Shown here in pieces: positions 1,615 to 28,849 of a stretch of 36,197 bases of DNA; within the stretch, counting starts at the first letter, position 1; every line of letters starts with the position of its first letter. The stretch comes from an uncultured Candidatus Saccharibacteria bacterium (lineage in GTDB: Bacteria; Patescibacteriota; Minisyncoccia; Sungbacterales; SURF-37), in NCBI GenBank assembly GCA_964373495.1, contig CAYJUW010000001.1:1-36197 (forward strand), given 5' to 3'. The notes below the pieces were generated by a model. That model ran no database searches, was not told the origin of the DNA, and saw nothing but the letters and a program-made list of their open reading frames with translations. A program made the translations under genes and the position numbers.

Positions 1615-1690
1615 CTTTAGCCCTCCGTTTGTGTTGTGATGGCGCCATGGAAGATGCTGTTTCTAATCTAGATTCTTCTATCGTCCCCTG

Positions 1691-3154
1691 TCAAGGTCTC
1701 AGGCTCTTTACTGCCCGTACGAACTTTTCCCCGCGGTCAAATTCGTGCCTGAACAGTCCAAAGCTCGCCGCGCCCGGCGAGAGCAGCACCGCGTCCCCCC
1801 GCTTGGCATTGCGGTAGGCCACCCGCACCGCCATCGCCATCGTCCGCGCATCCCGAATACTTAAATACTGTACAGTATTTAAGTATTCGCCATGTGCGCC
1901 GGGCTTTTGCCCCGTTTGCCCCTGGTGGAACATTTGCCGCCCCAAGGCCTTTTGCATTTTGTCGGTTGCTGTACCGGGCAGGAATGTTACGGAAGCTGCA
2001 TTCTCGCGGAGCGCCCGCATGAACTGACTAGCCGCTAGACCCTTGTCGTAACCGCCGGCGATGACGTGGAGACCGTGATGCCCGATGCCTCGCTTGGTGG
2101 CGATGATCGCTTGCTCCGCCGCCGTGGGATTCGTCGCCGTCGTGTCATTGATGAAGGAAACCCCGCGGACTTTCCGTACAAGCTCCATGCGGCCGGGCAT
2201 GCCGCGGAAGCGGGCGAGCGCGGTTCGGACGGCGCGCTCCCCTACTCCGGTATGCCGGGCGATGGCAACGGCCCCGGCGATGTTCGGGATATGGAACGCG
2301 GGAATGTTTTTTGCCAGCGCGTCACGGTAGCGACGCAAAATTTTCTGGGAATCGAAACGGATGACGCGCGATGGTGTATTACGGGCTATGCGCCGGAGCA
2401 GCGGATCACGGGCGTTGACGAACAGCATGTCACCGCGTTTCTGGAATTTGAAAATGTTCGCCTTGGATGCGATGTAGGCGGCCATCGAAGGGTAGCGGTT
2501 CAAGTGATCCGGAAAGATGTTGGTGATGAGGGCGATCGCCGGGCTCCGGCGGCTGTTCTTTAGCGAATCTAGTTGGAAACTCGATAGTTCCAGCACCACA
2601 AGGTCGTTTTTACGCACCCGTAACAGGAATTCAAGAACGGATTTCCTGATGTTGCCGCCGAGCCACACTCGGGATCCGCGTCTGATCCGCGTAGCCGATC
2701 CGCGTGGGATCCGCGGAGATTCCCCATGCCGCATCTCGGCACGGAGCATTGAGGCCAACAGGGTTGCGGTTGTTGACTTCCCTTTCGTACCGGTGATGCC
2801 GATGATCGGCGCCGGGCATCCGAGAAAAAAAATCTCAACATCGGAGAGGATGGAAACGCCGGCGCGCCTGGCGATTTTCAGAAACTTTGAGTTTTCGGGT
2901 ACGCCGGGGCCCTTGATGATGTAGTCAGCGATTTTGAAATCAGCCGGCCGGTGCCCGCCGAGGCGGTAGGTGATGTTTTTGAAGCGGCGGAGTTTGGCAA
3001 TGGTCGGCGCAAGTTGCCGTTTCGTTTTCAGATCAGTGACGATCACGTGGCTTCCCAAGCGGGAGAAGAAAGCAGCGGCGCCGGCGCCGCCTCCGTGCAA
3101 CCCCAATCCCATGATGAGGGCTTTTTTATTTTTGAAATCAGCGAGCTTCAGCAT
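1691..3154 (-). CDS. murD: UDP-N-acetylmuramoylalanine--D-glutamate ligase (MurD) with two unusual in-frame inserts
   Basis: N-terminal GLGLHGGG Rossmann motif, P-loop GITGTKGKSTT, and C-terminal LLSPGAASFGLFRHEFDRGEKF, which is typical of MurD. 487 aa. Confidence 0.9.
   Translation of the reverse strand: MLKLADFKNKKALIMGLGLHGGGAGAAAFFSRLGSHVIVTDLKTKRQLAPTIAKLRRFKNITYRLGGHRPADFKIADYIIKGPGVPENSKFLKIARRAGVSILSDVEIFFLGCPAPIIGITGTKGKSTTATLLASMLRAEMRHGESPRIPRGSATRIRRGSRVWLGGNIRKSVLEFLLRVRKNDLVVLELSSFQLDSLKNSRRSPAIALITNIFPDHLNRYPSMAAYIASKANIFKFQKRGDMLFVNARDPLLRRIARNTPSRVIRFDSQKILRRYRDALAKNIPAFHIPNIAGAVAIARHTGVGERAVRTALARFRGMPGRMELVRKVRGVSFINDTTATNPTAAEQAIIATKRGIGHHGLHVIAGGYDKGLAASQFMRALRENAASVTFLPGTATDKMQKALGRQMFHQGQTGQKPGAHGEYLNTVQYLSIRDARTMAMAVRVAYRNAKRGDAVLLSPGAASFGLFRHEFDRGEKFVRAVKSLRP
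1854..1889. repeat. 36-bp perfect palindrome CGAATACTTAAATACTGTACAGTATTTAAGTATTCG inside murD (GTAC-core AT-rich family)
   Basis: Arms checked base by base around the GTAC centre at 1870-1873. Encodes EYLNTVQYLSIR in the murD frame. Confidence 0.95.
2671..2715. repeat. Four closely spaced GATCCGCG copies (2673, 2684, 2697, 2708) inside murD
   Basis: Sequence is GGGATCCGCGTCTGATCCGCGTAGCCGATCCGCGTGGGATCCGCG. It encodes the Arg/Ser-rich stretch PRIPRGSATRIRRGSR between the P-loop and the GGNI motif. Confidence 0.85.
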
Positions 3155-9479: not shown

Positions 9480-10022
9480 TCAGCGGAGCGATGACTCTGG
9501 ATCGGCGGGAACGGCGATGGGTTCTTTTTGAAATGTCCCGTACTCCGGCAGCTCCGAGACGTTGGTGATGCCCAGGTGCTTCAGGAAATCGTGCGAGATG
9601 CGGTAGAGGTAGGCGCGCCGGTCTTTGGGGTTTTCCTCGCGGCTGACCAGACCCCGGATCAAGAGGTTCCGGAGCGTGAAGGAGGAGTCAACCCCGCGGA
9701 TGTATTCGATTGCCGCGCGGCTGATCGGCCCTTTGTAGGCGATGATGGCCAGCACCTCAAGCGAAGCGCGGGAGAGGTCTTCGGAGAGTTCGCTTGCGGC
9801 GAACTTTTCGACTACGGCTTTATGCGCGGGGTTGGTTGCGAATTGCCACTCCTCGCCGTTGGAGACGAGCTGAATCCCCCGTTCCCGGTACTCGGCTTGG
9901 AGTTCGCGCAGTGCGCCCTCAACTTCTTCCTTTGGAGCGCCGGCGGCTTTGGCCAGACGCGAAAGCGTCATCGAACTCCCCTGCATGAACAGCAAGCTCT
10001 CAATTAATGATGTTAAGCGCAT
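9480..10022 (-). CDS. scpB: Segregation and condensation protein B (ScpB)
   Basis: LIESLLFMQGSSMTLSRLAKA... with a tandem winged-helix layout, 180 aa. Confidence 0.85.
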   Translation of the reverse strand: MRLTSLIESLLFMQGSSMTLSRLAKAAGAPKEEVEGALRELQAEYRERGIQLVSNGEEWQFATNPAHKAVVEKFAASELSEDLSRASLEVLAIIAYKGPISRAAIEYIRGVDSSFTLRNLLIRGLVSREENPKDRRAYLYRISHDFLKHLGITNVSELPEYGTFQKEPIAVPADPESSLR

Positions 10023-10048
10023 GGAGCAGACAGCGTAACCGCCCGGCC

Positions 10049-10082
10049 TAATACTGTAATACTGTACAGTATTACAGTATTA
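10049..10082. repeat. 34-bp perfect palindrome TAATACTGTAATACTGTACAGTATTACAGTATTA (variant of the GTAC-core family)
   Basis: Checked base by base. Lies 14 nt downstream of the TrpR-like gene stop. Shares the core AATACTGTACAGTATT with 1854, 10652 and 24710. Confidence 0.95.
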
Positions 10083-10095
10083 CCTTGGGGTCTAT

Positions 10096-10617
10096 TTAGT
10101 AGCGCGCTTTAGCCAGGAGTAACTTAGCATCTTTGTAAATTTTTCTCTTATGATCGAGGTTGTCAATTACCTGATAAATTCGTTCACGCTCTTTTCGCGA
10201 CGCTGTTTCAAGCAGTTCCTGTATCAGCAACTGCGGCCAATAGTAGAGCGGATACTTTTTATGGATCGGCGGTCCATAGCTTCGGTTTGCACTTCGTTGT
10301 CGTTGCGAGCGCTGATACAGGAGGCGAAAGCCCGCACCCGAGTGCTGGAGCCAGGCACTTACCCGCGCAATGGTCGGTTCACTTACCTTCATTCGCTTTC
10401 TGATTTCTTCGTAGGTTTCGCCCTCAATGAGTAGAGTTGCAATTTTTAAGCGTTTGGCCAACATTTCCAGCTCTTGGCGCGAAACAAGATCCCCGAAGAC
10501 TTGGGCGGCCTCCTCCACGCCGCGTATGGTTCCCAGGCTGCGGAAAAATTCAAAAAGCAGTTCGTCTCTTTCTTTCCGGGACAGCTTGAGGCTGAATTTT
10601 TTCATCCGGCCGGTCAT
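10096..10617 (-). CDS. TrpR-related YerC/YecD-family DNA-binding protein with a C-terminal extension
   Basis: DELLFEFFRSL...QELEMLAKRLKIATLLIEGETYEEIRKRMKVSEPTIARVSAWLQ matches the YerC/YecD Trp-repressor-like fold pattern. Visibly lower GC than the neighbouring genes. Confidence 0.75.
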   Translation of the reverse strand: MTGRMKKFSLKLSRKERDELLFEFFRSLGTIRGVEEAAQVFGDLVSRQELEMLAKRLKIATLLIEGETYEEIRKRMKVSEPTIARVSAWLQHSGAGFRLLYQRSQRQRSANRSYGPPIHKKYPLYYWPQLLIQELLETASRKERERIYQVIDNLDHKRKIYKDAKLLLAKARY

Positions 10618-10651
10618 TGGTTCTCAGCTTCTTAACGCCACGTCATCGGAT

Positions 10652-10683
10652 AATACTTAAATACTGTACAGTATTTAAGTATT
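10652..10683. repeat. 32-bp perfect palindrome AATACTTAAATACTGTACAGTATTTAAGTATT
   Basis: Checked base by base. Lies 35 nt upstream of the TrpR-like gene start at 10617. Confidence 0.95.
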
Positions 10684-10766
10684 GGTATCGAGCTGGCTGG
10701 TCCAGAATGGCTTTTGATCCGTCAGCCATTTCTGGACAGCTTCTTCGTTCTATCGTCCTATCGTCT

Positions 10767-11480
10767 TCAGAGTGCCTTTCGGATTTTTATATCGCCGAAA
10801 AGCCCTTTCTGTTCAATCGTAACAAGTTTCTGTTTGGCCAACTCGAGCAAGGCCAGGAAACTCACAATGATCTCGACCTTCTCCCGGGCACCGGCGACGA
10901 GCTCGGAGAAGGCCCGCTCCACTTTTTTGCGCAGGAAGGCCTGGAGCTCTGCGATCTTCTCCTCCAGCGATATGATTCTCTTTAATTTTTCCTCAGCCAG
11001 CTTTTCGATCTTCGGGAGTGCGTCAATCACCCGCTGGAAAGCCCCGACGAGCATGGTCAGCGTGAATCGCTTGGGTGGATAGAAGACCGGGAGCCGGCCG
11101 GCGTAGGCCTCGCGGGAGAAGGACTTTGGACCGCCTGAGGCCATCTGGCCGATCCGGATGGCAAGCTCCTTGAAGCGCTTATACTCCTCCAGGCGCTGCT
11201 CGAGTTCGGCAATGGATTCCTCCTCTTCGGCGTTTGTCTGGAACTGCGGCAGCAAGCTGCGCGATTTGATGAGGAGCAACGTCGCCGCCACGACCAAGAA
11301 CTCGGCTAAAATTTCCTGGTCAGCTTCCCCCTTGGCCTGGAGCCCCCGCAGGTACCCGATAAATTTATCCGTGACGTTGGCCAGCGAAATTTCGTTGATG
11401 GCGAGCTTTTCGCCCTGAATGAGCTCGAGCAGCAGGTCGAGCGGCCCCTCAAACTTTTCTTGCTTGATCGTGTAGGGCAT
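10767..11480 (-). CDS. scpA: Segregation and condensation protein A (ScpA)
   Basis: EKFEGPLDLLLELIQGEKLAINEISLANVTDKFIGYL is the ScpA N-terminal signature. I place the start at ATG 11480 (MPYTIKQ). Confidence 0.85.
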   Translation of the reverse strand: MPYTIKQEKFEGPLDLLLELIQGEKLAINEISLANVTDKFIGYLRGLQAKGEADQEILAEFLVVAATLLLIKSRSLLPQFQTNAEEEESIAELEQRLEEYKRFKELAIRIGQMASGGPKSFSREAYAGRLPVFYPPKRFTLTMLVGAFQRVIDALPKIEKLAEEKLKRIISLEEKIAELQAFLRKKVERAFSELVAGAREKVEIIVSFLALLELAKQKLVTIEQKGLFGDIKIRKAL

Positions 11481-11524
11481 CCGGGTGGGAGAAATTCTAA
11501 ATCCGAAGCACAAAATTCGAAACA

Positions 11525-11570
11525 AATCTCAAATTCAAAATTCCAAATCCCAAACGCGTTTCTGATTTGG
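11525..11570 (-). terminator. Terminator-like hairpin after aspS
   Basis: On the minus strand, CCAAATC-AG-AAACG/CGTTT-GG-GATTTGG (11543-11570) is followed by AATTTTGAATTTG. Confidence 0.5.
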
Positions 11571-23599: not shown

Positions 23600-25444
23600 C
23601 TACTGCGGGAGCTCAAATTTAAATACCCGAAACGCGACTTCATTTCGCGGATTTCGGATTTCTTCCGGCACCACGCCCTTGGCGCGGAGTTCGGCTTCCA
23701 AGAGGTCACCGTCCGGCGCGGCTGGCCGGGGGCGATCCTGAAGGGCGTATGCCAAAGGGTTGAAGAAGTAGATTTTCTGAACGCCGGATTGCCGGAGGAA
23801 CTCGGCCGCTCCCCCGCGCCGGAAGTTTTCTGCGCTCACCACCGGCCAGCCCTGGTAGGTGATGCGCCGCAGGAAGACCCAGAGCTGGGCGGCGAGGTTG
23901 ATGTTGTCGTTGTAGACGATGCCGAGCGGTGTTGGCTTGAGTTTCTGGCGTCTGCCTTCGGCAGCCGCTTGATTCAAAAGTTCATGCGCGAACGGAAATT
24001 CAAAGGTGATGGCCGGATCCGGCATCTTGCCCGCCAGCTCCTGGCCGAGGTAGGCGTTCAGCTTGTTGAATCCCCAACTCCCGGTTTGGCGGTGGAGGTA
24101 GGAGTAGGCCCAGGGCTTCTCGCCAACCGGATCGAGGGCTATAACGCTGTTGTAAGCATAAAAGGCCTCAAAGGCGACAAAAGCCGCAAAGGCCGCAAAG
24201 ACAATGGCGGGCGATTTCATTCCTAAATTCCTAGGAATATTGGAATAGATTGTTGCGCTGATGGCGTAGCCGGCGGCAATGGCCAGCCACGGGGTGAGCA
24301 GGGCCAGGAAGCGGTGCGCCGGACCGATGAATACGAGGAACGGCAGGAGCCAGATAAAAACAATGGCTAATGGCGAATGGCTGGTGGCTAAGGTACGGCG
24401 GCGGATTAGCTCCCAGAAGATTGCGACGAGACCGGTAACAGAAAGAATGAGGAAGTAGGGCGAGTTGGCCTCGATGAGCCGCGGCACGTACATCCGTACG
24501 CGATCGGAGAGCGACCCGAGTACTTCCTGCCCCGGCCGCGCCTGCCATTCCGGCACATCCTGTCTAAAGAGGAGCGAAAATTGAAAATCAAAGTGGCCGA
24601 AATGGCGGTAGAGTTGAATATTGTAGATAATCACCGGACTTGCGATGACCAGAAAGGCCATGACCGAAAGTAAAACATGTTTGGCGGGGAAACGCCGCCC
24701 CCATCGTCCAATACTTAAATACTGTACAGTATTTAAGTATTTAATTTGGAGGAGGTAGAGGGTCAGTAATATCGGTGCGAGGATCGCGGCGAGGTACTTC
24801 GCGAGGAAGGCAAAGCCAAGGAGCGCGCCGGAAAGGGGCAGCCACCACGAGGAGTTTCGCTTCGTCGTTGCGAAGCTGGGCGTCGTGTCAAGACCGCGCA
24901 GAAACGCCCAGAACGACGCAAGCATGAAGGCGATGAGGACGGATTCCTGCAGGCCGATCCGGGAGATCCAGACGTGATTGGCGGTGACGGCAAAGAGCAA
25001 AGCGCTTATCGCCCCTACGGTTGGCGAATAACTATGGAAGCCCGACTTCAATAGTTTGCCGCCTATTGAAGTCGGACTTCCATAGATTCCAGAGAGTTGG
25101 GCGCCAATGAGGTAGACGAAAATGACCGCGGCGATGCCGGCAAGCGCCGAGGGCAGGCGCACGGCAAAGGGCGTCTCGCCGAAGAGTTTCATGGAATAGT
25201 GCTGCAGTAAAAACACCAGCGGCGGGTGGTCGTGGAAGGAAAGGCGCATCCACCACGGGGGCTGGGTGTCAATCCACTGCCACGGCGTGGGCTGTTCGAT
25301 CCCGAAATCAAAATCCACGAGGCCGATAGCCCGCGTGGCATAGGAGGACTCGTCGGTTACGATGTCCGGCCGGCCGAGATGCCAGAAATAAAAAACAGCC
25401 GTGAGGCAGAGAAGACCGCCTATCAGCCAATTCTGGGACTTCAT
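23600..25444 (-). CDS. ArnT/PMT-family (GT39/GT83-like) membrane glycosyltransferase with a C-terminal soluble extension
   Basis: N-terminal DESSYATRAIG loop motif, more than 10 TM segments, about 614 aa. The track start at 25447 is a GTG and ATG 25444 is adjacent. Confidence 0.75.
   Translation of the reverse strand: MKSQNWLIGGLLCLTAVFYFWHLGRPDIVTDESSYATRAIGLVDFDFGIEQPTPWQWIDTQPPWWMRLSFHDHPPLVFLLQHYSMKLFGETPFAVRLPSALAGIAAVIFVYLIGAQLSGIYGSPTSIGGKLLKSGFHSYSPTVGAISALLFAVTANHVWISRIGLQESVLIAFMLASFWAFLRGLDTTPSFATTKRNSSWWLPLSGALLGFAFLAKYLAAILAPILLTLYLLQIKYLNTVQYLSIGRWGRRFPAKHVLLSVMAFLVIASPVIIYNIQLYRHFGHFDFQFSLLFRQDVPEWQARPGQEVLGSLSDRVRMYVPRLIEANSPYFLILSVTGLVAIFWELIRRRTLATSHSPLAIVFIWLLPFLVFIGPAHRFLALLTPWLAIAAGYAISATIYSNIPRNLGMKSPAIVFAAFAAFVAFEAFYAYNSVIALDPVGEKPWAYSYLHRQTGSWGFNKLNAYLGQELAGKMPDPAITFEFPFAHELLNQAAAEGRRQKLKPTPLGIVYNDNINLAAQLWVFLRRITYQGWPVVSAENFRRGGAAEFLRQSGVQKIYFFNPLAYALQDRPRPAAPDGDLLEAELRAKGVVPEEIRNPRNEVAFRVFKFELPQ
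24710..24741. repeat. 32-bp perfect palindrome AATACTTAAATACTGTACAGTATTTAAGTATT inside the glycosyltransferase CDS
   Basis: Identical to 10652-10683. Encodes KYLNTVQYLSIG in frame. Confidence 0.95.
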
Positions 25445-25461
25445 CACGCTAGAGCTCGTCG

Positions 25462-28709: not shown

Positions 28710-28849
28710 ACCGCACCGTACGCGGTGCGGTATCTGATTTTGAACGAGATCCCTCGTCCCGCTTTCGGCGGGACTCGGGATTATTGTTTGTTCCCGCCAT
28801 TCATCCGCGCCGCCCAGCGGCGCGGTATTCTGGCGGACAAACAATAAAA
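28710..28849. repeat. Three-hairpin structured element, copy C
   Basis: 138/140 identical to 19898-20037. The mismatches are at 28719 and 28734. Confidence 0.9.

What the first reader, a model, noticed from the sequence alone, without database searches (positions are those of the whole stretch)
1854..1889. 36-bp perfect AT-rich palindrome inserted in-frame in the essential gene murD
CGAATACTTAAATACTGTACAGTATTTAAGTATTCG is a perfect palindrome in a GC-rich gene and is translated as EYLNTVQYLSIR. It lies in the C-terminal domain of MurD between ...KMQKALGR and the conserved ...LLSPGAASFGLF region, inside a segment (FHQGQTGQKPGAHGEYLNTVQYLS) that looks like an insertion compared with MurD proteins I know. 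The same core occurs three more times in the window, twice intergenic and once in another CDS. In-frame palindromic elements in coding regions are known from the Rickettsia palindromic elements, but I do not recognise this sequence.
Basis: partly seen in the sequence, partly recalled or inferred. Interest (0 to 1): 0.7.

Follow-up and report, generated by a model that had tools for sequence, protein, structure and literature searches.

The report
Repressor operator palindrome inside murD
The AT-rich palindrome in murD is real, and it most likely is one copy of the binding-site motif of a Trp-repressor-like protein encoded 8 kb away in this Candidatus Sungbacteria genome; some copies sit in frame in tolerant protein loops, which is unusual, but it is not a Rickettsia-type element.

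Summary
A perfect 36-bp palindrome lies at 1854-1889 in an intact murD and is read as EYLNTVQYLSIR. Its 32-bp core recurs at 10652-10683 and 24710-24741, and a variant lies at 10050-10081.

The two intergenic copies bracket a TrpR/YerC-family gene (10096-10605) that sits between scpA and scpB. Seven homologues of that gene in other CPR contigs were examined. Each has the same palindrome, or a co-varying one, on both sides. Three syntenic Sungbacteria loci have no such gene between scpA and scpB and no palindrome in 21 kb, murD included.

The 32-mer reads as two overlapping 20-bp HisR/TrpR-type operators offset by 8 bp.

The murD copy lies in a hypervariable, low-confidence linker. It is kept at that linker in three other Sungbacteria. 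The copy in the glycosyltransferase is a 15-residue insert in a loop between membrane helices, and an orthologue carries the palindrome at a different loop.

Best reading: these are operators of a new long-form TrpR-like regulator, and some were inserted in frame into coding DNA. How they got there is unknown. A REPtron-like selfish module is the main rival. Binding was not tested.

The parts
1854..1889 (.). 36-bp perfect palindrome (32-bp unit 1856-1887) inside murD, translated EYLNTVQYLSIR. Weaker complementarity extends to 1845-1898.
   Evidence: I2: 27-nt arms, 89% complementary. As RNA it would fold at -25.7 kcal/mol, z = -7.
1691..3154 (-). murD (UDP-N-acetylmuramoylalanine--D-glutamate ligase), intact, 487 aa. 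It hosts the palindrome in a hypervariable linker of the C-terminal domain.
   Evidence: Pfam Mur_ligase_M/C and MurD-like_N. Homologues are named Candidatus Sungbacteria MurD. Alignment A1. Model pLDDT below 50 at residues 409-416 and 421-427.
10652..10683 (.). 32-bp palindrome 47 nt upstream of the TrpR-like gene's likely start (ATG at 10605). Proposed autoregulatory operator. Its end plus the flank gives TATTAT, with TTAAAT 17 nt upstream.
   Evidence: The promoter reading is my own inspection of the sequence, and the scan tool did not report it.
10096..10605 (-). Gene for a long-form TrpR/YerC-family protein (169 aa from Met5 of ORF 10096..10617). It has an N-terminal TrpR-like helix-turn-helix domain and a roughly 65-aa helical C-terminal extension with an invariant KYPxYYWPQ motif. 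Proposed binder of the palindrome.
   Evidence: Pfam PF01371, E 4e-13. Profile against PDB: 3FRW, 3KOR, 3G1C at about 1e-16. Fold search matches only the N-terminal part. Alignment A2. Model.
10050..10081 (.). Variant 32-bp palindrome AATACTGTAATACTGTACAGTATTACAGTATT, 15 nt after the TrpR-like stop codon and 28 nt before the scpB start. Proposed second operator.
   Evidence: I13.
24710..24741 (.). 32-bp palindrome inside the PMT_2 glycosyltransferase gene, same frame (KYLNTVQYLSIG). It is part of a 15-residue insert relative to the L009 orthologue.
   Evidence: It lies in a hydrophilic loop between two hydrophobic stretches.
23600..25447 (-). PMT_2 / ArnT-like membrane glycosyltransferase gene that hosts the second coding copy.
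   Evidence: Pfam PF13231 and PF02366.
9480..10022 (-). scpB, directly downstream of the palindrome-bracketed gene (context).
   Evidence: Pfam SMC_ScpB.
10767..11525 (-). scpA, directly upstream of the palindrome-bracketed gene (context). scpA and scpB abut in relatives that lack that gene.
   Evidence: Pfam SMC_ScpA. L017, L018, L019 and L021.

Best explanation
The palindrome is a composite operator for the TrpR/YerC-family protein encoded at 10096-10605.

The 32-mer can be read as two overlapping 20-bp sites, TACTTAA-N6-TACAGTA and its mirror image. They are offset by 8 bp, so two dimers could sit side by side.

Two copies bracket the regulator's own gene. The upstream one overlaps a plausible promoter, which suggests autorepression. 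The downstream one lies just before scpB.

Further copies lie inside murD and a membrane glycosyltransferase gene. There the DNA site is carried as about 10 extra codons (YLNTVQYLSI) in loops that tolerate insertions. A repressor bound there would act as a transcriptional roadblock or looping anchor for the distal cell-wall genes, or it would do nothing.

Shown: the anatomy, the co-occurrence with the gene, the conservation, and the loop location.

Inferred: binding, stoichiometry and regulatory effect.

Unknown: how 30-45-bp sites were inserted into coding DNA.
For: 1. Gene and site go together. In the window, L016, L010, L013 and L021 (Sungbacteria), L014 (Doudnabacteria) and L020, a palindrome of this type lies both upstream and within 60 nt downstream of the TrpR-like gene, often overlapping its stop codon. 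In L015 both flanks carry a changed motif, ATAGT..ACTAT.

2. Presence and absence agree. L017, L018 and L019 share the gene order, have scpA next to scpB with no TrpR-like gene between them, and show no match in 21 kb each, murD included.

3. The protein is a DNA binder of the right family: PF01371, HisR/YerC-type structures at 1e-16, and fold matches to 3KOR, 3FRW, 3G1C and TrpR-operator complexes. No enzymatic domain was detected.

4. Each 20-bp half of the palindrome matches 11 of the 14 specified positions of the published HisR consensus cacTTTAnnnnnnTAAAgtg, with the same ACT-N12-AGT spacing. That paper reports 20-bp palindromic operators and frequent autoregulation in this family (PMC9413887).

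5. The murD site behaves as a selected DNA element. It is 30/30 identical between the window and L010, while the genes are 68% identical in DNA and third positions at identical residues are 53% identical. In L013 and L012 the ACT / ATACT / AGTAT / AGT blocks persist while other positions changed.

6. Intergenic copies in low-GC CPR contigs lie about 20-100 nt upstream of gene starts. This is my reading of the ORFs.
Against: No binding data exist. The link rests on co-occurrence in a handful of contigs.

None of L001-L009 (1.1-8 kb of sequence each) that carry a solo palindrome also carries the gene, though eight of the nine are under 6 kb.

L017-L019 could carry the gene elsewhere in their genomes.

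Three copies identical over exactly 32 bp with chance-level flanks, and a 15-residue insert in one orthologue against a different position in another, look like insertion of a discrete unit. An ordinary regulon model does not explain that.

Several sites are palindromic well beyond the conserved blocks, with different outer sequences (GTGCAA/TTGCAC, GGGGTA/TACCCC). This fits hairpin selection or a palindrome-generating process at least as well as protein contacts.

The ACT/AGT spacings (4, 12 and 20 bp) differ from the 8-bp spacer of E. coli TrpR.
Confidence: 0.6

Rival explanations
1. A selfish, REPtron-like module. The TrpR-like gene bracketed by palindromes is a mobile or relocating cassette. 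The solo 32-bp palindromes are copies it spreads, or footprints and attachment sites of it. In-frame copies survive only in tolerant loops. Any regulatory effect is secondary.
For: The pal-gene-pal cassette fills the whole gap between neighbouring genes. In L013 there are about 16 nt on each side, against a 3-7-nt scpA-scpB gap in L017 and L018. In L021 the cassette sits between murG and gltX instead. The protein is 96% identical between the window and L016 while ScpA and ScpB are 72% identical, with a high-identity DNA tract from about 10748 to about 9830. Copies are identical over exactly 32 bp with unrelated flanks. PMT orthologues carry the palindrome at different loops. The layout of a gene flanked by its repeat family resembles REPtrons (PMC3733652).
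Against: The protein is a small all-helical DNA binder with no detectable nuclease, transposase or recombinase domain. There are no terminal inverted repeats, target duplications or conserved GTAG/CGTC tag. The murD copy is orthologous and conserved in four genomes, not polymorphic among close relatives. L021 is a deep relative (MurD 43% identical), so the different location may reflect old rearrangement. The window-L016 tract runs 200 bp into scpB, as expected for ordinary homologous recombination and not for site-specific exchange at the palindromes. Copy density is low, at two solo copies in 36 kb.
Confidence: 0.2
2. An RNA- or DNA-level hairpin with no dedicated protein, acting as a terminator, an mRNA-stability or processing element, or a cruciform.
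For: The transcript would form a 16-bp stem at -25.7 kcal/mol, z = -7. Palindromy extends beyond the conserved blocks with compensatory differences between sites. Several intergenic copies lie just after stop codons.
Against: The centre (TGTACA, TATATA, TACGTA, TCTAGA) is itself palindromic in most sites, which a hairpin loop does not need. There is no T-run as in intrinsic terminators. No Rfam family matches. A terminator 160 nt before the end of an essential gene would be harmful. The tight link to a DNA-binding gene is left unexplained.
Confidence: 0.1
3. A LexA (SOS) box. The variant copy contains CTGT-N8-ACAG twice, the E. coli-type LexA motif.
For: The CTGT-N8-ACAG spacing is present in 10050-10081, read from the sequence. 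The motif is as quoted in PMC8565304.
Against: The common 32-mer has CTTA-N8-ACAG instead. No lexA, recA or other SOS gene is next to any copy. The sites track the TrpR-like gene. The Patescibacteria LexA paper could not be read.
Confidence: 0.03
4. An assembly or chimera artefact.
For: None found. Raw reads were not available.
Against: The same element is at the same murD linker in independent assemblies. There are four copies in one contig with intact reading frames.
Confidence: 0.02

Closest known systems
HisR (YerC) and TrpR repressors with their 20-bp palindromic operators
   Same: The cognate protein has a PF01371 TrpR-like domain, most similar to HisR/YerC-type structures. The half-site ACTTAA resembles ACTTTA, with ACT-N12-AGT spacing. 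A site lies upstream of the regulator's own gene. An 8-bp register between adjacent sites recalls tandem TrpR binding (PDB 1TRR appears among the fold hits; PMC9413887).
   Different: The protein is 169-190 aa, with a conserved C-terminal extension (KYPxYYWPQ) absent from HisR and TrpR, which are under 110 aa. The operator is a 32-bp double site. A second site lies immediately after the gene. No histidine or tryptophan genes are nearby. Copies lie inside coding sequences.
Rickettsia palindromic elements (RPE)
   Same: Palindromic DNA is translated in frame inside otherwise conserved, even essential, proteins, in places that tolerate extra residues.
   Different: It is 32-36 bp against roughly 100-150 bp for RPEs (the RPE size is from my own knowledge). 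It is in a different phylum. It is tied to a DNA-binding gene. One copy is conserved at an orthologous position. The copy number seen is low.
REP sequences and REPtrons (RAYT flanked by REPs)
   Same: These are short palindromes of 20-40 bp. A single gene is flanked on both sides by members of the repeat family. Occasional copies lie inside genes (PMC3733652).
   Different: The flanked gene is a helix-turn-helix protein, not a Y1/HUH transposase. The palindromes are perfect and lack a GTAG or CGTC tag.
Intragenic operators and chromosome-organising sites (lac O2 in lacZ, parS, matS, SlmA sites)
   Same: Palindromic protein-binding sites function although they lie in coding DNA. The gene's neighbours here are scpA/scpB, and parA/parB in L020. 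The comparison with lac O2, parS, matS and SlmA sites rests on my own knowledge.
   Different: Those sites evolved within existing codons. Here the site adds about 10-15 codons. No evidence links this protein to chromosome organisation beyond its gene neighbourhood.

Membership tests
TrpR/HisR (YerC)-family operator | A PF01371 protein is encoded in the genome, typically next to a site | tested here: met
   ORF 10096..10617 hits PF01371 at E 4e-13. Profile against PDB: 3FRW, 3KOR, 3G1C at about 1e-16. Fold matches.
TrpR/HisR (YerC)-family operator | About 20-bp palindromic site with family-type half-sites (HisR cacTTTAnnnnnnTAAAgtg; TrpR GNACT half-site) | tested here: met
   TACTTAAATACTGTACAGTA matches 11 of the 14 specified HisR positions with the same ACT-N12-AGT spacing. 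The 32-mer holds two such sites 8 bp apart. This compares the sequence with the consensus quoted. The spacing differs from TrpR's 8-bp spacer.
TrpR/HisR (YerC)-family operator | A site upstream of the regulator's own gene (autoregulation, common but not universal) | tested here: met
   An upstream site is present in the window, L010, L013, L014, L016, L020 and L021. L015 has a changed motif there.
TrpR/HisR (YerC)-family operator | The protein binds the site, usually with an amino-acid co-repressor | not testable with these tools
   Needs purified protein and DNA.
TrpR/HisR (YerC)-family proteins | Short single-domain protein (under about 110 aa) | tested here: not met
   The protein is 169 aa, with a conserved helical C-terminal extension that no PDB fold matches. 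Among clusters at 50% identity, 100 score E below 1e-30, mostly 160-190 aa. This is a distinct long-form subfamily.
Rickettsia palindromic elements | In-frame insertion into conserved ORFs at tolerant positions | tested here: met
   MurD linker. PMT loop with a 15-residue insert relative to L009.
Rickettsia palindromic elements | Element of roughly 100-150 bp belonging to the RPE sequence families | tested here: not met
   The shared unit is exactly 32 bp and the flanks are at chance identity. No RPE sequences were aligned, and the RPE size is from my own knowledge.
REP / REPtron | The flanked gene is a RAYT (Y1 HUH transposase) | tested here: not met
   The flanked gene is TrpR-like. No Y1_Tnp hit was found among the window ORFs scanned.
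REP / REPtron | Imperfect palindrome tagged by GTAG or CGTC at one end | tested here: not met
   The palindromes are perfect and no conserved flanking tetranucleotide is present. The definition is from PMC3733652.
MITE | Terminal inverted repeats around an internal segment, plus a target-site duplication | tested here: not met
   The whole unit is a 32-bp palindrome and no duplication is visible at any copy.
LexA SOS box | The motif sits upstream of SOS genes (lexA, recA, uvr, and others) | tested here: not met
   The neighbours are murD, a PMT gene, scpA/B, uppP, glyA, NUDIX, hisS, groEL/lemA and tgt.
Tyrosine-recombinase core site (dif/lox-like) | Two 11-13-bp inverted arms around a 6-8-bp central region, recognised by a recombinase | tested here: inconclusive
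   The geometry fits (13-bp arms plus TGTACA). However, there are several copies per 36 kb, no recombinase gene is in the window ORFs scanned, and the resemblance to dif is from memory only.

The most novel reading that the evidence does not exclude
A CPR-specific TrpR-fold protein and its 32-bp palindrome form a self-propagating or chromosome-organising module. One version: the protein, through its uncharacterised KYPxYYWPQ C-terminal domain, or a host pathway it recruits, copies the palindrome to new places, including in frame into essential genes. That would be a REPtron-like system built on a helix-turn-helix protein and not on a transposase. Another version: the sites are anchoring points for a condensin-linked organiser (the gene lies between scpA and scpB) that have to be placed regardless of coding context.
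Probability: 0.15. Interest if true: 0.8.

Novelty: new variant of a known kind. Interest (0 to 1): 0.55.

Why it matters
Very few transcription-factor/operator pairs have been worked out for Candidate Phyla Radiation bacteria, which have small genomes and few regulators.

This one can be tested directly with a 169-aa protein and a 32-bp oligonucleotide.

If the link holds, it defines a new long-form branch of the TrpR/HisR family. Its sites lie next to cell-envelope and chromosome-segregation genes.

It would also show that a protein-binding DNA site can be carried as extra codons inside an essential enzyme. That affects how 'insertions' in CPR proteins are read. Some may be DNA-level elements, not protein features.

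If the selfish-module reading is right instead, it would be a repeat-spreading system with no recognisable transposase.

Tried and rejected
1. Listing all in-frame copies through the peptide YxNTVQYxSI. A 40-column profile padded with X worked locally but the word index returned nothing. With two open frames that is not significant.

2. The genome scan used a pattern requiring the outer A/T and therefore missed copies such as the one in L010. The looser metagenome scan gave only 7 contigs.

3. The viral-contig scan gave 3 hits that are asymmetric and in very AT-rich DNA. I treated them as chance.

4. I suspected that the ETNLKFQIPK-type peptides at the same MurD linker in other Sungbacteria encode another palindrome. 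The DNA is an A/C-rich low-complexity repeat, not a palindrome.

5. Extended flank similarity or a target duplication among the window copies was not found, apart from a 5-nt CATCG shared by two copies that I regard as chance.

6. RAYT, transposase or recombinase in the window: none among the ORFs scanned.

7. Rfam: only two tRNAs.

8. LexA: the relevant Patescibacteria paper is not held.

9. Site-specific exchange of the cassette at the palindromes: the window-L016 high-identity tract overruns into scpB, so it was not supported.
Full report
**Observation**

The 36-bp sequence is at 1854-1889 exactly as described and is a perfect palindrome. Shuffled controls gave no matches. The 16-bp core occurs four times. 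Three copies share an identical 32-bp unit, AATACTTAAATACTGTACAGTATTTAAGTATT, at 1856-1887, 10652-10683 and 24710-24741. A fourth copy at 10050-10081 is the variant AATACTGTAATACTGTACAGTATTACAGTATT. Outside the 32 bp the flanks are at chance identity in either orientation, and no target duplication is visible.

**Coding context**

ORF 1691..3154(-) is an intact MurD with all three Mur-ligase domains. The palindrome encodes residues 423-434, EYLNTVQYLSIR. The copy at 24710-24741 lies in a PMT_2-family membrane glycosyltransferase and is read in the same frame as KYLNTVQYLSIG. One of the three frames of the palindrome contains TAA, and the other two are open. The closest MurD relatives are named Candidatus Sungbacteria, a Parcubacteria/CPR lineage, at 60-70% identity.

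**Is it an insertion in MurD?**

In an alignment of 37 MurD sequences, the segment between FLPGxAT.KM and A(R/K)TM..AV varies widely in length and sequence. Thirty-four of the 36 orthologues lack the peptide. P0025 has RYLNTVQYLSIA there and P0032 has a diverged DTLEYQSV.

- At the DNA level, L010/L011 (P0025) carry cgATACTTAAATACTGTACAGTATTTAAGTATcg.
- L013 carries ATACTTAAATACTTTACAGTATGTAAGTGA.
- L012 (P0032) carries GCACTCGGATACTCTAGAGTATCAGAGTGT.
- All three sit at the same linker.

Many other Sungbacteria have A/C-rich low-complexity DNA there, translated as KSQIPNPK-like peptides, and not a palindrome. An AlphaFold model built from this alignment (mean pLDDT 84.7) puts residues 412-431 in coil between helix 395-411 and strand 432-435, with pLDDT below 50 at 409-416 and 421-427. 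The best PDB relative (3LK7) aligns poorly across the same stretch. So the peptide sits in a tolerant, probably disordered linker of the C-terminal domain.

**The key context**

The two 'intergenic' copies bracket ORF 10096..10617(-). Its likely start is Met5 at 10605, because all homologues begin MxKF and are about 169 aa. It is a TrpR-family protein (PF01371, E 4e-13). A profile of the family hits the HisR/YerC-type structures 3FRW, 3KOR and 3G1C at about 1e-16 and E. coli TrpR weakly.

A model (mean pLDDT 80) is all-helical. Only its first 100 or so residues find structural relatives (3KOR, 3FRW, 3G1C, then TrpR-operator complexes, including the tandem-binding crystal 1TRR). The C-terminal 65 or so residues match nothing. 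That extension carries an invariant KYPxYYWPQ motif. The long form is a real family: 100 clusters at 50% identity score below 1e-30, mostly 160-190 aa.

**Gene and palindrome travel together**

I fetched the DNA around seven homologues. In Sungbacteria L010, L013, L016 and L021, in Doudnabacteria L014, and in another CPR contig L020, a palindrome of the same type lies upstream of the gene. A second lies within 60 nt after it, often including the stop codon (TAA-ATACT...). In L015 both flanks carry a changed motif, ATAGT-TTAG-ACTAT, with a symmetric C-to-G change.

Three Sungbacteria loci with the same gene order (L017, L018, L019) have scpA directly followed by scpB, no TrpR-like gene in the block, and no match to the motif in 21 kb each, including murD. 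Within the data available, the murD palindrome is present exactly where the gene sits between scpA and scpB (window, L010/L011, L013).

**Anatomy of the site**

The blocks conserved across all copies are ACT-nnn-ATACT-nnnn-AGTAT-nnn-AGT. ATACT repeats with an 8-bp period on each arm.

Positions 3-22 of the 32-mer, TACTTAA-ATACTG-TACAGTA, match 11 of the 14 specified positions of the published HisR consensus cacTTTAnnnnnnTAAAgtg. The ACT-N12-AGT spacing is the same. Positions 11-30 are the mirror image. The source paper reports 20-bp palindromic operators for HisR and TrpR, lineage-specific consensus sequences, and frequent autoregulation (PMC9413887).

I therefore read the 32-mer as two overlapping family-type operators, 8 bp apart, for two dimers. 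That is an inference from sequence. The upstream copy, with its flank, also offers TTAAAT-17-TATTAT 47 nt before the start codon. This is my own reading. The consensus scan did not list it.

**Is the murD copy under selection?**

Between the window and L010 the murD genes are 69% identical in protein and 68% in DNA. Third positions at identical residues are 53% identical. Yet the 30-bp core of the palindrome is 30/30 identical, inside a linker whose flanks do not align. In L013 and L012 the contact-like blocks persist while other positions changed. This fits purifying selection on a DNA element, or repeated correction from other copies. It does not fit neutral drift.

**Signs of insertion and movement**

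- The window glycosyltransferase has a 15-residue insert (IKYLNTVQYLSIGR...) relative to its orthologue in L009. The insert lies in a hydrophilic loop between two hydrophobic stretches.
- L009 lacks it there and instead carries the palindrome (YFNTVQYLSM) in an earlier loop.
- A perfect 30-bp site that adds codons cannot plausibly arise by point mutation, so discrete insertion events occurred.
- The pal-gene-pal cassette fills the whole scpA-scpB gap. In L013 that is about 16 nt of spacer on each side, against 3-7 nt in L017 and L018.
- In L021 the cassette lies between murG and gltX instead. L021 is a deep relative (MurD 43% identical), so this need not be recent.
- The regulator is 96% identical between the window and L016 while ScpA and ScpB are 72% identical. 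DNA identity jumps from about 72% to 88-98% between about 10748 and about 9830, which overruns 200 bp into scpB. This looks like ordinary homologous exchange, not exchange at the palindromes.

**Rivals**

- **REPtron-like selfish module.** It explains the sharp 32-bp unit, the insertions and the flanked gene. But the protein has no recognisable catalytic domain. The repeats lack the REP tag and the flanked gene is not a RAYT. The murD copy is conserved and not polymorphic.
- **Pure hairpin element.** The predicted stem is strong (-25.7 kcal/mol, z = -7), and palindromy extends beyond the conserved blocks. It does not explain the palindromic centres, the lack of T-runs, or the link to the gene.
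- **LexA box.** This is suggested only by CTGT-N8-ACAG in the variant copy. No SOS genes are nearby.
- **Artefact.** This is unlikely, given independent assemblies.

**What is not known**

Binding, ligand, stoichiometry, regulatory effect, genome-wide copy number and frames, and the mechanism that inserts the site are all unknown. I could not reach the rest of the source genome, and raw reads were not available.

**Verdict**

The RPE-like interpretation is only partly right. The best explanation is operator sites of a previously undescribed long-form TrpR/HisR-family regulator of CPR bacteria, some of them embedded in frame in coding loops. I put this at about 0.6, with a selfish-module reading as the main alternative.

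Noticed in passing
window 25032-25085: A different inverted repeat (23-nt arms, 96% complementary, 8-nt spacer) lies in frame inside the same glycosyltransferase gene. It is at the very loop where the L009 orthologue carries the ATACT palindrome. There is a single copy in the window.
   Followed up: partly
window 19898-20037 and 28710-28849 (weaker copy 17992-18131): A 140-nt direct repeat, 99% identical between two copies. It has several GC-rich hairpins and ends in CTGGCGGACAAACAATAAAA. The only Rfam match is a sub-threshold hit to Termite-flg RNA (27 bits against a gathering score of 40) on the minus strand.
   Followed up: partly
window 17207-17244 and 17165-17203: A GC-rich perfect 38-bp palindrome, CTGCCGCACTTGACGGCGATCGCCGTCAAGTGCGGCAG, and an adjacent inverted repeat, CGTTTAGTACTTTAGT / ACTTTAGTACTAAACG. 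They lie in the gap between ORFs 16778..17092 and 17296..18279.
   Followed up: no
window 9830-10748 compared with L016: A high-identity tract (88-98% DNA identity) covers the TrpR-like cassette and the first 200 bp of scpB, within genes that are otherwise about 72% identical. The regulator is 96% identical in protein against 72% for ScpA and ScpB. This suggests recent recombination between Sungbacteria lineages.
   Followed up: partly
L021 9938-10548: In a deeper Sungbacteria-like lineage with the same gene block, the palindrome-bracketed TrpR-like gene sits between murG and gltX. There scpA and scpB overlap.
   Followed up: partly
window about 2675-2740 (MurD residues about 139-160): A second variable insert in MurD (EMRHGESPRIPRGSATRIRRGSR) is shared in part with a few orthologues (P0002, P0003, P0005, P0008). 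It has low model confidence at residues 145-152.
   Followed up: no
L017 and L018, murD 3' linker: Other Sungbacteria carry A/C-rich low-complexity DNA (AAATCCCAAATTCCAAAATCC...) in the same MurD linker, translated as KSQIPKSKFQTNLK-like peptides. The linker seems to be a general hotspot for extra DNA.
   Followed up: partly
L007 479-508, L008 730-759, L011 4764-5192: NUDIX hydrolase genes lie directly next to the palindrome in two low-GC CPR contigs, and between scpA and the TrpR-like gene in L011. They are a possible regulon member.
   Followed up: no
L020 9097-13613: In this CPR contig the TrpR-like gene lies directly after a ParA/MipZ-like ATPase gene and 2 kb before parB. This echoes the scpA/scpB neighbourhood in Sungbacteria.
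   Followed up: no
window 1665-1694 (minus strand): A promoter-like TTGACA-18-TAGATT sits at the murD stop codon, about 170 nt downstream of the palindrome and upstream of ftsW.
   Followed up: no
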